From: Strigamia acuminata
Lineage: Eukaryota
Length of the DNA stretch: 64,000 bases
Reading direction: 5' to 3'
NCBI GenBank assembly: GCA_949358305.1
Contig: OX442314.1
Coordinates: 8,990,001-9,054,000 of the forward strand
Position numbers and translations under genes: made by a program. Position 1 is the stretch's first letter, and every line of letters begins with the position of its first letter. This document shows, piece after piece, positions 27,675-64,000 of this stretch. The notes beneath the pieces are model-generated. The model was not told the DNA's origin, did no database searches, and saw only the letters and a list, made by a program, of their open reading frames with translations.

Positions 27675-27999
27675 TTCGGGGGCGACTATTCTGGGGATTC
27701 CGGGTGGACCAAACTCTTCCGGAAAACGTCCGGGGTGGTGTTGGGAGTGTCAATAGACTGTTTTGTGTCAAGGTTGTCAATTTTCATGTGAGTATTGGAA
27801 GGTTCATTTCTGCACATTCTCATGTATTTTTTTTCACAGGAGCGACAAGGAGCGATGAAGCGGGATCGAGCGAGAGTGGGTAAAATAAACTGGTTTACGT
27901 CTCCAATGCGCGTTCAAGATGGAATACGAACTCGGAATCGACTCCAACACGCCTTCGCGTGACATACGGACGCATTCACGACCCAGATCAAAAAATGAT

Positions 28000-30690
28000 C
28001 TCGTATTCGACTCGCTTTCTAGTCGAGTACGAGTTTTGCCCTTCTTCAACGCGAAATCGTATTCGACTCGTTTTCTAGTCGAATGCGAGTTTTGCCCTTC
28101 TTCAACGCGAAATCGTATTCGACTCGTTTTCGAGTCGAATGCGAATTTTGCCCTTCTTCAACGCAAAATCGTATTCGACTCGTTTTCGAGTCGAGTACGA
28201 GTTTTGCCCTTCTCCAACGCGAAATCGTATTCGACTCGTTTTCGAGTCGAGTACGAGTTTTGCCTTTCTTCAACGCGAAATCGTATTCGACTCGCTTTCG
28301 AGTCGAGTACGAGTTTTGCCCTTTCTACAACGCGAAATCGTATTCGACTCGTTTTCTAGTCGAATGCGAGTTTTGCCCTTCTTCAACGCGAAATCGTATT
28401 CGACTCGTTTTCGAGTCGAATGCGAATTTTGCCCTTCTTCAACGCGAAATCGTATTCGACTCGTTTTCGAGTCGAGTACGAGTTTTGCCCTTCTCCAACG
28501 CGAAATCGTATTCGACTCGTTTTCGAGTCGAGTACGAGTTTTGCCCTTCTTCAACGCGAAATCGTATTCGACTCGTTTTCGAGTCGAATGCGAATTCGTA
28601 TTCGACTCGTTTTCGAGTCGAATGCGAATTTTGCCCTTCTTCAACGCGAAATCGTATTCGACTCGTTTTCGAGTCGAATACGAGATAGTCGATGACCCGT
28701 TCCCGGACTTTGACTCGTACGACTCGTATTCGAGATGTATTCGAGATGTATTCGAATCGTATTCGAGTCGTATTCGAGATGGTCGATGATTTCCACTCGC
28801 TCGTATACGCGTTGTATACGAGCTCGTATTTTGATCGTAATCGTAAACGAATCGTTTACAAGTCGTATACGAGTTGTATACGACGTGTATACACCTCGTA
28901 TACGAACGAAGTTTGTGAAAACACAATTTCCAAATAAGACGTATGTGACTACTATGTGTTTTCATGTCGTAGTAAGTATCCGGTGGATTTTCCAAACTTC
29001 GTTCGTATACGAGGTGTATACACGTCGTATACAACTCGTATACGACTTGTAAACGACTCGTTTACGATTACGATCAAAATACGAGCTCGTATACAACGCG
29101 TATACGAGCGAGTGGAAATCATCGACCATCTCGAATACGACTCGAATTCGATTCGTATTCGATTCGAATACGATTCGAATTCGATTCGAATACGAATACG
29201 ATCAAAATACGAACTCGTAACAACTCGAATACGAATCAAAGTCCGGGAAACAAAAATCATCGACCATCTCGTATACGATTCGAAAGCGAATCGAATACGA
29301 TTTCGCGTTGAAGAAGGGCAAAATTCGTACTCGACTCGAAAACGAGATGTATTCGAGATGTATTCGAATCGTATTCGAGTCGCATTCGAGATGGTCGATG
29401 ATTTCCACTCGCTCGTATACGCGTTGTATACGAGCTCGTATTTTGATCGTAATCGTAAACGAATCGTTTACAAGTCGTATACAAGTTGTATACGACGTGT
29501 ATACACCTCGTATACGAACGAAGTTTGGGAAAACACAATTTCCAAATAAGACGTATGTGACTACTATGTGTTTTCATGTCGTAGTAAGTATCCGGTGGAT
29601 TTTCCAAACTTCGTTCGTATACGAGGTGTATACACGTCGTATACAACTCGTATACGACTTGTAAACGATTCGTTTACGATTACGATCAAAATACGAGCTC
29701 GTATACAACGCGTATACGAGCGAGTGGAAATCATCGACCATCTCGAATACGACTCGAATACGATTCGAATACATCTCGAATACATCTCGAATACGAGTCG
29801 TACGAGTCAAAGTCCGGGAACGGGTCATCGACTATCTCGTATTCGACTCGAAAGCGAGTCGAATACGATTTCGCGTTGAAGAAGGGCAAAACTCGTACTC
29901 GACTCGAAAGCGAGTCGAATACGATTTCGCGTTGAAGAAGGGCAAAACTCGTACTCGACTCGAAAACGAGTCGAATACGATTTCGCGTTGAAGAAGGGCA
30001 AAACTCGTACTCGACTCGAAAACGAGTCGAATACGATTTCGCGTTGAAGAAGGGCAAAACTCGTACTCGACTCGAAAGCGAGTCGAATACGATTTCGCGT
30101 TGAAGAAGGGCAAAACTCGTACTCGACTCGAAAACGAGTCGAATACGATTTCGCGTTGAAGAAGGGCAAAACTCGTACTCGACTCGAAAGCGAGTCGAAT
30201 ACGATTTCGCGTTGAAGAAGGGCAAAACTCGTACTCGACTCGAAAACGAGTCGAATACGATTTCGCGTTGAAGAAGGGCAAAACTCGTACTCGACTCGAA
30301 AACGAGTCGAATACGATTTCGCGTTGAAGAAGGGCAAAACTCGTACTCGACTCGAAAACGAGTCGAATACGATTTCGCGTTGAAGAAGGGCAAAACTCGT
30401 ACTCGACTCGAAAGCGAGTCGAATACGATTTCGCGTTGAAGAAGGGCAAAACTCGTACTCGACTCGAAAGCGAGTCGAATACGATTTCGCGTTGAAGAAG
30501 GGCAAAACTCGTACTCGACTCGAAAACGAGTCGAATACGATTTCGCGTTGAAGAAGGGCAAAACTCGTACTCGACTCGAAAGCGAGTCGAATACGATTTC
30601 GCGTTGAAAAAGGGAAAAACTCGTACTCGACTAGAAAGCGAGTCGAATACGATTCCGCGTTGAAAAAGAGAAAAACTCGTACGCGATTCA
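28000..30690. repeat. Inverted array of 56-bp palindromic tandem repeats around two duplicated long hairpins
   Basis: Unit gaagggcaaaactcgtactcgactcgaaa(a/g)cgagtcgaatacgatttcgcgttgaa; about 12 copies at 28000-28680 in one orientation and about 15 at 29840-30690 in the other; central hairpin block repeated at a 612-bp offset. Confidence 0.97.
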
Positions 30691-31146
30691 GTGAAACTAA
30701 ATTTACATGTGCGCGTTGACGCGCGCGATTCGTGTGTTCTACGTGAGTAAATAGAGTGCGCGTCACATATGAATACAAAATGTCGACCATGCGTCGCCAC
30801 GATGCCAGTGGACGAATTCTGCGAATTCGTGCAAACGCAGAAAGTTAAAAATATTCAAATTTGACGCCCACGATGACACGTTCGTAGTAGACGCCTCCAC
30901 AACTGCTTTTGAAAAGAATTTGATAAATGTTTGGAAATAATATTTAGGATTTTCTTTAATCATATCAGGAAACTGAAAACAGAAATAAAGTTTATACATT
31001 GGAAATTTTTTATAATAAAATTACGTATTAAACATTATATAGCGTGAGAATGGACACTTTGATATGAAAGCGAATATTTTCGAAATTAAAACAATTATTT
31101 TCAAAGTTAAAACGACTATTTTCGAGTATTGTTAATTCAAAACGAC

Positions 31147-61560: not shown

Positions 61561-62360
61561 GATCAGGAAATTAAACTTTGATCGTTTTCCCTATTATGCA
61601 CATTTTTTGTTCCGAGTGGCAATGTCCGGTACGCGCGCGTACGTCCCCTCCCTCTTTCTACCCGGACACCGAGACCCGGTGGACGATAGGTTGTGTGGAC
61701 ACTCGGATATTCGGGGTTCGGTCCTTTGCATTTATTCATAATGAAGACTCTTCTTACGTACAACTTAGCGTTATTTTTTTTCCCGCGTGTATTGTTTGCC
61801 GTCGACATGTTTAAAGTGCGTGCCGACTCGATCAGCGACCAAATAAGCGGAGTTGTAAACCCACGCCAAATTGAACGACTGCGGAAATATCGTCGCCAGT
61901 CCACGCATGCTCCACTTGATTACTTACTTACTCACCCACTCACTCGCTTTCTCTCGCTCTCACTCTCGCTCTCGCCCTCGCTCTCGTCGACACCACGTTG
62001 CAGTGAAGCACGAAGCTTCGTTTCAATTGTCGCCATTTTTAAATCGGGCTAGAGCCGGGCAAAGACAGTTTGCGTTTGCAGTTGCGTGTTTAGTTTCGTT
62101 TCGTTAAACGTGAGTGAGCGAGCGAGTGAACGAGCGAATGAGCCAAGTGTTTTGTGGTATCATTTGTCAATTATTCCCGCCCAATTATGCACGTATTGTA
62201 TCCGTAAGCGCGCGCGCAGAAAAAATTTGTTTGTTTGGTTATTGTTGCTAACAGAAAATGAAGCTCAATTTAATAACCCATTTGTTTTTTTTTTTTTTGT
62301 TTTTTTTTTTTTCTTTTTCTTTTGATTTTATCTATCGCGTTTTTTTCTTTTTCAGAGACC

Positions 62361-63043
62361 ATGATGACAGGAACATGGAAGGTGAAAGGGGAAGGGGAGA
62401 CATCGTCCATCTCGGCGCCCGTTCTCCGTGCGACGCGGACTAGAACCACATCGCCGTCGTCGACTGCCGCTATCGCGTCGGTACCGCTCGATCCCGCTTT
62501 GTCCAAGCGTCCAGGCAGGCAGAAAAGGAGTAAACTGACGCTGATCAAGAGGGTACGCGCCACGTCTTGGGTTTTATTTATTTGCTTATTCTCTTTTTTT
62601 TTTTTCTCCCTTTCCCTTTCCAGTCGCGAAGAGAGACATCATTGCCGCCGCCGTCTTCACCTTCGGTGCTGCGGGAAGAGAGATTGGCAACAAGGGTCGA
62701 GGCGGTGATAACAGAAAAAATGGAGAATGTGGTGAAGAATGTGGTGAAGAATGTGGCGGAGAATGTGGCGGAGAATGTGGTGGAGAAGGTTATGGCGAAG
62801 CGAATGGAGAAGGTGTTGGCGGAGCAACTGGACAAAGTGGTTGCGGAGCGAATGGAGAAAGCGGCGAGATGGCGGGAAAAGAAGACGAAGACGTTGTGCG
62901 TGTTGAAGTCGGTGGGGAAGAAGCTAGAGGCGGTGCAGGCGGAGGTGAAGGAAATGGAGATGGACATGGTGGACATGATGGAGGAGGAAGATGGCTGTGG
63001 TTACGAAGGACTCGATGATAACGGCGATGAAAAGGAGTGGTAG
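62361..63043 (+). CDS. 2-exon Ser/Pro-rich, coiled-coil, acidic-tail protein; exons 62361-62552, 62624-63043
   Basis: Phase-0 GT-AG intron; open frame to the stop codon; 12-bp coding repeats (NVVK/NVAE). Confidence 0.72.
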
Positions 63044-64000
63044 GGAGAAGGGGTGATGGGCCTTGAAGACGATGGTTACGATGTGACCGACAGTGACCAC
63101 AACCAAGATTCTATCAAATAAATAGATAAATAAATTGACAAGTGTACTCATAATTGTTGTATAGATTCCTTCGATCGAATAAACATTGTTTTAATATAGT
63201 TGTCACGGTTCATACTTTGGCGAAAGCATGTCTGGCGATGGCAAGGGGCGCACGAGTGGCTACTCGCATGCCGTCCCCTGGGACATGCAGACTCGCTCTC
63301 GGACCTCAGGACTCATATTGTCGCCTGGCTCGCGTAGACAGCGTAGACAGCGATGGGGCAAGAAGTCTGGGAGATAGATAAAGTTAAAATCTGAAACTGC
63401 AAATTTTTCACAAAACAATTTGTTTCAATCGGTCCCAACGACGATAATCTAATTAACAGTTGGAGCGCAAACCACGAAACCGATTCGACGATTGTGGGAT
63501 TAAACTTTCATTGTCTTCCATGGGTATTTTTTATTCCACAGGGTGTCCCACGCGCGCGTGTCTACTCCTTTCTCTTTTCTTCGTCCGGGGACCCATTTCC
63601 AATCGAACTTTTTTTTTGTCCGGCGCCCAAAAGCCCGGACAGATCCACGAAATCCGCAGCAAAATCACGAGCTTGGGGTCGGCGTATAGGTCGCACAGCA
63701 TCTCCCGAGGATTAAATATATAAACAATTAAACTAGTGTTTTTGCACAATTATTTGGAACAAACAATCGCTATAACCAAACAATACCAACGCTGTGGAAG
63801 CGTACGGGAGCGCGTATCTGAACATCCCGGCACCAATGTACCACCATGAACGCGACACCCTTAACGATACGTGCGTTTAAATGTGACCCAATGCGCGATA
63901 AGACACGTGACGCATCATTTTCACCACGTATTGTGACATTTACGAAATTTACGGTATTTACGGGATGAGTGAAGGAATCTAATCAACTCGATCTTATTTT

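What the first reader, a model, noticed from the sequence alone, without database searches (positions are those of the whole stretch)
27982..64000. Candidate giant (>36 kb) multi-gene DNA transposon carrying a spliced piggyBac-type transposase and chromatin-type cargo
Seen: retrotransposon B stops near 27981. A CCCAG end and a palindromic repeat array follow, then more than 30 kb of densely packed spliced genes that resemble each other rather than housekeeping genes, with an intact transposase in the middle. The 5' halves of both retrotransposons and of FkbM copy D never reappear. Known: piggyBac ends usually start CCC with a TTAA TSD; CACTA/EnSpm elements have subterminal repeat arrays and short TSDs; Teratorn is a giant piggyBac-herpesvirus fusion. 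I see no capsid, polymerase, helicase or CACTA transposase here, and the genes have introns. Inference: this is one large mobile unit of a type I cannot match to a described family.
Basis: partly seen in the sequence, partly recalled or inferred. Interest (0 to 1): 0.92.

Follow-up and report, generated by a model that had tools for sequence, protein, structure and literature searches.

The report
Giant multi-gene piggyBac-type transposon
A block of DNA at least 23 kb long, and likely over 36 kb, is present at high, even read depth in an animal genome (likely a centipede); it starts with a piggyBac-type end and carries a piggyBac transposase plus several predicted spliced genes of unknown origin, so it is likely a jumping gene several times larger than ordinary piggyBac elements.

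Summary
Contigs of public runs put the break at 27640/27641, not 27982. A deep contig bridges 27982. Uninterrupted copies of retroelement B continue behind 27640, and other flanks join before 27637. The window reads TTAG|CCTTT there, a piggyBac-type target and end.

From 27.7 to 50.6 kb, contig depth is flat and at least as high as that of multi-copy B in two studies. The unit probably has tens of copies or more. The 6-exon, 633-aa transposase model is open and shows no ends of its own. It falls in a well-supported clade of unnamed environmental proteins.

The seven other gene models (zinc fingers, a weak PHD match, coiled coils) have no named relatives. No viral gene was found in the window.

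Best reading: a young giant piggyBac-superfamily transposon with its own accessory genes (0.6). A Teratorn-like virus fusion with its core genes beyond the window is not excluded (0.25).

The parts
27637..27640 (+). Left target tetranucleotide TTAG (variant of TTAA), inside the integrase ORF of retroelement B
   Evidence: Sequence. B's uninterrupted form continues behind 27640 in X1 (2 contigs) and X3 (1 contig, plus 1 diverged copy leaving at 27635). Other flanks join before 27637 in X1 (6 contigs, agreement 0.69).
27641..28000 (+). Left end of the element, starting CCTTTC; the CCCAG at 27982 is internal
   Evidence: contig 27722-28014, depth 1457, 2 differences. The bin 27658-27811 is 1.8-3.3 times deeper than the next bin in the 3 covering runs, as expected if the first ~100 bp recur (inferred terminal repeat). 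No second copy lies in the window.
28001..30686 (.). 2.7-kb palindromic array: 56-bp units (each with a 14-bp-stem hairpin) in two inverted arms around two duplicated centre blocks
   Evidence: No Rfam family reaches its gathering score.
30765..31907 (.). Degenerate inverted arms (30765-30882 / 31778-31907) around a 280-bp palindrome (31147-31425)
   Evidence: Opposite-strand joints in both runs (table 5).
32213..33648 (+). g1: predicted 5-exon gene, 304 aa, acidic and coiled-coil-like, weakly related to g4
   Evidence: Model; similarity.
37293..40874 (+). g2: predicted ~10-exon gene: paired zinc fingers, acidic region, PHD-like finger, RTC4-like helical end. Frame broken near 39.3 kb in this copy; start not defined.
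   Evidence: Modelled in two pieces. PHD E 1.7e-4 and RTC4 E 8.5e-4, both under the cut-off. Both runs differ in length from the window near the break (table 4).
41971..44291 (+). piggyBac-type transposase: predicted 6 exons, 633 aa, three catalytic aspartates, C-terminal cysteine-rich domain
   Evidence: DDE_Tnp_1_7 on four pieces; open model; 41-50% identical to its clade. Depth is flat across it and both flanks.
44573..45881 (-). g3: predicted 4-exon gene, 343 aa, 8-residue repeats and a long coiled coil
   Evidence: No usable Atlas hit (best 0.79).
47098..47659 (-). g4: predicted 2-exon gene, 162 aa, paralogue of g8
49080..49714 (+). g5: small Ala-rich spliced gene candidate; no open model in this copy
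   Evidence: no model. Both runs differ in length from the window near 49.4 kb.
50720..52326 (-). g6: predicted 5 exons (partial model) with the same paired zinc-finger module as g2 and an acidic/basic tail; may be the 3' part of g7
53053..56707 (-). g7: predicted 7 exons, 427 aa, very acidic, with a 13-residue repeat (53152-53668)
59064..63902 (.). Degenerate non-coding modules repeated two to three times (59064-59754 ~ 60700-61375, 72%; 61458-61613 ~ 63386-63537)
   Evidence: Membership of 50.6-64 kb in the unit rests on composition only: all 7 bins score on the block's side.
62361..63043 (+). g8: predicted 2-exon gene, 203 aa, paralogue of g4
19381..27640 (-). Not part of the unit: 3' part of LTR retroelement B (integrase ORF, second ORF, LTR), the target of the insertion
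   Evidence: Integrase_H2C2 and rve; LTR-type ends; multi-copy with many variants.

Best explanation
The block starts at 27641 behind a TTAG inside retroelement B, lies at high, even read depth over at least 23 kb and holds an open piggyBac transposase frame, and it is likely one young, giant cut-and-paste transposon that this transposase moved as a whole. SHOWN: the end position, the empty site in B, other flanks at the same end, flat depth across array flank, cargo and transposase, and the transposase family. INFERRED: the spliced transposase binds this end and a right end beyond 64000, cuts at TTAA-like sites and duplicates four bases. This copy landed in a TTAG of B, which itself sits in A, which sits in an FkbM gene. 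The other genes are likely the element's own accessory set, grown by internal duplication (g4/g8/g1; g2/g6), and not captured host genes. They are likely nuclear DNA- or chromatin-binding proteins that help the element be expressed or escape silencing (weakest step). The palindromic array 360 bp from the end likely supplies repeated protein-binding sites that help pair two distant ends.
For: (1): the break lies at 27640/27641 on both kinds of contig. The window has a TTAA/TTAG/CTAA+CCY site there, and only 16 such sites occur on the + strand in 64 kb (chance about 0.002 for a 9-base span). (2): X3 contigs at 27722-28014, 31157, 31460 and 32181 have depths 1457, 1452, 1458 and 1459. Its 8 long listed contigs from 32.8 to 45.8 kb have 1211-1605, against about 770-1170 for its long contigs of B from 24.4 kb on. 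X2's 8 listed contigs have 12,684-19,737, against 2,281-3,690 for B from 24.2 kb on. All 30 bins are covered in both runs. (3) The transposase has no TTAA+CCY or RGG+TTAA end between 40.4 and 48.4 kb and no depth step. (4) The open 633-aa model matches DDE_Tnp_1_7; its relative P0011 matches solved piggyBac transposases. (5) Composition is distinct from the host part. (6) No viral family was matched by 106 long ORFs, 19 exon pieces and 150 of 176 short ORFs.
Against: No right end, no target duplication, and no contig listed that spans this very B|element junction. The target is TTAG, not TTAA, and the sixth end base departs from the published motif (PMC5381638). One residue just before the third catalytic aspartate differs from all 8 aligned relatives, and none of the 6 differences of the X3 contig there touches it, so present activity is unproven. 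Depth relative to B differs about fourfold between studies. Differences between the window and X3 give no sign of selection on the gene models (9 synonymous of 27, 7.6 expected). The one clade member found with flanks (L001) is intronless and shows no cargo match in 3.5 kb downstream.
Confidence: 0.6

Rival explanations
1. Teratorn-like fusion: the unit is an integrated large DNA virus that uses the piggyBac transposase as its integrase. The window shows only a terminal, non-core region, and the array is a viral origin-like repeat.
For: Teratorn is the described giant piggyBac, with 30-40 copies, long repeats and many unannotated genes (PMC10175614, PMC5601938; passages). Only the first 36 kb are visible here. 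Depth is high and differs between studies. Palindrome arrays resemble viral origins (recalled, not tested). Intron-rich large DNA viruses exist (PMC12768974, title in listing only).
Against: No viral family. No relative in IMG/VR for the transposase, the g2 end or the left-end pattern. Coding density is 29% with many introns. No internal copy of the terminal sequence lies in the window.
Confidence: 0.25
2. A composite or amplified repeat: a piggyBac-type end and the gene block are amplified together as a tandem or extrachromosomal repeat, or are moved by another transposase, and the internal transposase gene is a passenger.
For: 18 of 40 listed differences are at full depth in X3 and absent from X2, which suggests homogenisation within samples (the tool says contigs drop rare variants). 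The array bin is far deeper than the body. The transposase has an unusual residue next to a catalytic aspartate.
Against: Six X1 contigs give differing flanks at the same end, and this copy interrupts B at a piggyBac-type site. In X2 the other 22 of 40 sites carry both letters or mainly the X3 letter, as in a family of copies.
Confidence: 0.1
3. Assembly artefact or foreign DNA: the high-depth block comes from a co-occurring organism or repeat and was misjoined to B.
For: No listed contig spans this junction; composition is unlike the host part.
Against: The join falls exactly where independent contigs show both B's empty site and the element's end with other flanks, at a rare end motif. Three runs of two studies hold 72-79% of the sampled words, although one may be the source sample.
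Confidence: 0.05

Closest known systems
piggyBac-like elements (PBLE; Bouallegue et al. 2017, PMC5381638, passages read)
   Same: DDD transposase with cysteine-rich tail, end starting CC(T), 4-base TTAA-like target, subterminal repeats.
   Different: The 157 PBLEs there span 1,721-8,451 bp. This unit is at least 23 kb and likely over 36 kb, has a 5-intron transposase model, seven further gene models and a 2.7-kb array; the target here is TTAG.
Teratorn and Teratorn-like elements of teleosts (PMC5601938, PMC10175614, PMC6431247; passages read)
   Same: Giant piggyBac-superfamily unit, CCYT end, internal transposase without its own ends, tens of copies, many unannotated genes.
   Different: Teratorn holds all 13 alloherpesvirus core genes and internal TIRs and was reported in teleosts. 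None of these is seen in these 36 kb, the host is likely a myriapod, and the genes are intron-rich.
Starships and other cargo-mobilising elements (PMC11162782, passages read)
   Same: Tens of kb, multi-gene, moved as a whole by one internal enzyme (works-like comparison).
   Different: Starships are fungal and use a tyrosine recombinase. That paper's introduction names, for animals, Teratorn, Mavericks, Helitrons and Pack-MULEs, and no non-viral giant piggyBac.
Unnamed environmental piggyBac clade (P0003, P0006, P0007, P0009, P0011, P0012, P0019, P0026, P0052)
   Same: 41-50% identity to the window model; 12-row clade with SH-aLRT 100 (quick tree, 73 rows).
   Different: Named proteins (Priapulus, Branchiostoma) appear only in the sister group.

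Membership tests
piggyBac superfamily | DDD transposase (DDE_Tnp_1_7) with C-terminal cysteine-rich domain | tested here: met
   relative P0011 matches PDB 6x67 and 9c0f.
piggyBac superfamily | End begins with CCY(T) / C[CAT][CAT][TGA][TAG][TGA] | tested here: met
   CCTTTC at 27641: CCYT met; 5 of 6 positions of the longer motif.
piggyBac superfamily | TTAA target, duplicated on both sides | tested here: inconclusive
   Left side is TTAG. Other flanks align from 27637, which fits TTAA or TTAG. Right side is outside the window.
piggyBac superfamily | Two terminal inverted repeats | not testable with these tools
   No partner in the window; no genome held; extra depth over the first ~100-170 bp is only a hint.
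piggyBac superfamily | Dispersed copies and empty sites | tested here: met
   Empty site of B in two studies, six contigs with other flanks in one run, high flat depth. Flanks are short (median 12 letters).
piggyBac superfamily | Usual size 1.7-8.5 kb (typical, not defining) | tested here: not met
   At least 23 kb at one depth against PMC5381638.
Teratorn-like | Herpesvirus core genes (capsid, terminase, polymerase, helicase) | tested here: inconclusive
   None in 36 kb; the rest of the element was not seen.
Teratorn-like | Internal TIRs at the border of long inverted repeats | tested here: inconclusive
   No internal copy with 0 mismatches in 11 bases; the loose matches lack a TTAA context. 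The rest was not seen.
Maverick/Polinton | Protein-primed polymerase B, retroviral-like integrase, capsid, ATPase | tested here: not met
   No such Pfam match in the block. The integrase at 25014-27640 belongs to B, which exists without the block.
CACTA/EnSpm | CACT[AG] end and Tnp2-type transposase (features recalled) | tested here: not met
   End is CCTTT; transposase is piggyBac-type.
Starship | Tyrosine-recombinase captain | tested here: not met
   No recombinase match; mobiliser is a DDD transposase.

The most novel reading that the evidence does not exclude
An undescribed family of giant, non-viral piggyBac transposons in myriapods, an animal counterpart of fungal Starships. They move tens of kilobases with their own intron-rich set of zinc-finger, PHD and coiled-coil genes and a palindromic array, may fill several percent of the host genome, and are marked by a distinct transposase clade that also occurs in soil and other environmental samples.
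Probability: 0.45. Interest if true: 0.9.

Novelty: new variant of a known kind. Interest (0 to 1): 0.8.

Why it matters
In the reviews whose passages I read, the giant piggyBac-driven elements are herpesvirus fusions of fish, and natural cut-and-paste transposition is said to fall off above about 6 kb of cargo (PMC6431247). A young multi-copy element of 23-36+ kb in an arthropod would break that limit without, so far, any viral machinery. It would give a natural system for asking how a transposase pairs very distant ends and what accessory genes a giant transposon needs. If viral genes lie further along, it would be a piggyBac-virus fusion outside fish, which my searches did not show in print. 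The transposase clade gives a direct handle to look for relatives in long-read invertebrate genomes. It may also interest large-cargo vector work.

Tried and rejected
(1) End at 27982 (CCCAG): rejected, bridged by a deep contig; its mirror does not occur in the window.
(2) Array as a self-contained MITE: no closing end motif near 30.7-32 kb, and depth is equal on both sides.
(3) Transposase as a small nested piggyBac: no ends and no depth step (312 loose-end rows were not shown).
(4) B's integrase as part of the unit: rejected by the empty site.
(5) The automatic gene finder fused neighbouring genes; the models are hand-guided, and g5 and a candidate at 57.6-58.1 kb gave no model.
(6) Word-based homologue searches found 1 transposase relative and none among longer proteins, although HMMER found 1,151. 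Blanks from word-based tools are therefore weak.
(7) IMG/VR scans were empty. The JGI scan gave 8 loci, 1 close to the clade and none with cargo matches.
(8) ESM Atlas: no usable hit for the g2 end, and one 0.79 lead for g3.
(9) The single-sequence fold of the g2 end had pLDDT 49 and was not searched further.
(10) Rfam: 12 matches, all under the gathering score.
(11) The selection test on 27 coding differences was flat.
(12) No RNA holder listed. X6 covers almost nothing, not even B, so it is uninformative.
(13) Earlier scan notes: nothing on this genome or sequence; word look-ups gave unrelated elements.
(14) Eight literature searches listed no paper on such an element in myriapods. The library lacks most subscription papers and Repbase, and I read no supplements.
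Full report
SETTING. No genome was held, so the work rests on the window, on Logan contigs of public runs and on protein searches. The left 16.6 kb holds tandem FkbM genes. One of their exons is 74% identical to a Strigamia maritima protein, so the host is likely a centipede or relative (inference). 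LTR elements A and B follow as a nest, and their missing halves do not return in the window.

THE END IS AT 27641, NOT 27982. Three runs of one species label, from two studies, hold 72-79% of the sampled words of 39.1-46 kb (one may be the source sample). Laid on 23.5-28.1 kb, X3 has one contig over 27722-28014 with 2 differences and depth 1457, so CCCAG at 27982 is internal. Loose ends cluster 340 bp to the left. Contigs of B leave the window behind 27640 (X1, 2 contigs; X3, 1 contig, and a diverged copy at 27635) with the same onward letters: this is B without the insertion. By hand, B's integrase frame stays open over the next nine codons, which is weak support on its own. Six X1 contigs match from 27637 rightwards but have differing letters before it (agreement 0.69, median 12 letters): the same end in other flanks. 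82 loose-end rows were not shown. The window reads TTAG at 27637-27640 and CCTTTC from 27641. Such sites number 16 on the + strand in 64 kb, so the chance of one within nine bases of a given break is about 0.002. Teratorn's ends are described as CCYT with TTAA targets (PMC10175614, passages). PBLE ends follow C[CAT][CAT][TGA][TAG][TGA], with rare non-TTAA sites, none listed as TTAG (PMC5381638, passages). No listed contig spans this very junction, and no right end lies in the window.

ONE HIGH-COPY UNIT. On 30.64-50.6 kb all 30 bins are covered in X3 and X2. X3 contigs on either side of the array have depths 1457 and 1452-1459. Its eight long listed contigs up to 45.8 kb have 1211-1605, and X2's eight have 12,684-19,737. 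B, itself multi-copy, has about 770-1170 in X3 and 2,281-3,690 in X2 on its long contigs from 24.2-24.4 kb on. As a rough guide, stray low-depth contigs have medians near 22 in X3 (10 values) and 98 in X2 (13 values), and the shallowest B variant listed among X3's indel rows has 36. That points to some 25-70 copies in X3 and 130-200 in X2. Those stray contigs may be error branches, so only 'tens or more' is claimed. The transposase shows no depth step and no end motif of its own. For 50.6-64 kb there are no reads; CpG o/e (1.49 against 1.52) and 4-mer scores (7 of 7 bins positive) put it with the block.

ANATOMY. After 360 bp comes a 2.7-kb palindrome: 10.5 and 15.2 inverted 56-bp units, each with a 14-bp-stem hairpin, around two 95%-identical blocks. 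Hand-guided GT-AG models give a 633-aa, 6-exon transposase with three catalytic aspartates and a cysteine-rich tail, and seven further models: g1, g2, g3, g4, g6, g7 and g8 (g6 and g7 may be one gene). g5 gave no open model. Exons cover 29% of 30.7-64 kb. Of 106 long ORFs (20 array ORFs left out), 19 exon pieces and 150 of 176 short ORFs, only DDE_Tnp_1_7 reaches a Pfam cut-off within the block. g2 has sub-threshold PHD (E 1.7e-4) and RTC4-like (E 8.5e-4) matches. g4 and g8 are paralogues, g1 is weakly related, and g2 and g6 share a paired zinc-finger module; most of the 28 pairs are unrelated. The frames of g2 and g5 break in this copy near 39.3 and 49.4 kb, where both runs differ in length from the window; the other 10 of 12 listed indels fall outside modelled exons. 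Of 27 coding differences from X3, 9 are synonymous (7.6 expected), which fits neutral change in an inserted copy but gives no support to the models. Splicing is unconfirmed.

THE TRANSPOSASE. HMMER found 1,151 relatives. In a quick tree of 73 rows (those covering at least 230 residues), the window model sits in a 12-row clade with SH-aLRT 100 and 41-50% identity. The clade members looked up come from short environmental contigs without organism names; Priapulus and Branchiostoma proteins lie in the sister group. One residue before the third aspartate differs from all 8 aligned relatives and is not among the differences of the X3 contig there, so activity today is unproven. The only close locus with flanks, L001, is intronless and has no cargo match.

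MECHANISM. Most likely (0.6) this is a young cut-and-paste element of the piggyBac superfamily that moves as one piece. Shown: end, empty site, other flanks, flat depth, enzyme family. Inferred: use of this end by this enzyme, a right end beyond 64000, four-base duplication, and roles of the array (end pairing) and of the cargo (DNA or chromatin binding in the element's own interest). A Teratorn-like virus fusion with core genes further on stays open (0.25). A tandem or extrachromosomal repeat with a passenger transposase (0.1) and a misjoin (0.05) are less likely.

COMPARISON AND NOVELTY. It works like a piggyBac and passes the membership features that could be tested, but the second end and the duplication could not be tested. 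It is at least 2.7 times the largest of 157 PBLEs (8,451 bp). It resembles Teratorn in scale and in the internal, end-less transposase (PMC5601938, passages; PMC6431247, passages) but shows no herpesvirus gene in 36 kb. It resembles Starships only in the way it works (PMC11162782, passages). Eight searches (listings and abstract starts only) showed no paper on such an element in myriapods. The library omits most subscription journals and Repbase, and supplements were not read. Verdict: real, surprising and testable; a new variant of a known kind, interest 0.8.

Noticed in passing
window 2877-16579: Tandem host FkbM methyltransferase genes (four Pfam-positive copies). One exon is 74% identical to a Strigamia maritima protein, which suggests a centipede-like host.
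   Followed up: partly
window 14798-27640: Four-level nest: FkbM copy D, LTR element A (LTR 16580-17711, solo relative at 1510-2605, 79%), LTR element B (LTR 19381-20052), then the giant element.
   Followed up: partly
window 21934-27640 (-): Element B is unusual: a long proline-rich stretch precedes the integrase, and a 790-aa ORF with no Pfam match follows it. It is multi-copy in all three covering runs.
   Followed up: no
window 30727-31917: Opposite-strand joint at near full depth in X3 (1204) and low depth in X2. It is either an inverted segment between the inverted arms or a better-matching arm in other copies.
   Followed up: no
window 38752-39623: One X3 contig (depth 54) skips 870 bases with a short filler: a rare internally deleted copy.
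   Followed up: no
window 34844-34888 and 34969-35010: A 45-base stretch has a relative elsewhere in both runs (long loose ends); the neighbouring motif recurs inverted at 61328-61369.
   Followed up: no
window 34476-34701; 36610-36664; 52980-53030; 54773-54822: Three 75-bp direct repeats and three 50-55 bp palindromes in intergenic or intronic DNA of the block.
   Followed up: no
window 9239-10156 and 12601-14510: Two ordinary inverted-repeat-bounded insertions among the FkbM genes; the first carries AACCT repeats.
   Followed up: no
L001:1113-4694: Downstream of an intronless transposase of the same wider clade lie many short repeats with TCGTAC/TTCGAA-like words, reminiscent by eye of the window's array (not tested).
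   Followed up: no
P0001 (JGI protein): The protein runs out of similarity at the same codon as the window's second intron, and so do P0002, P0004 and P0005. This suggests a shared intron position in relatives.
   Followed up: partly
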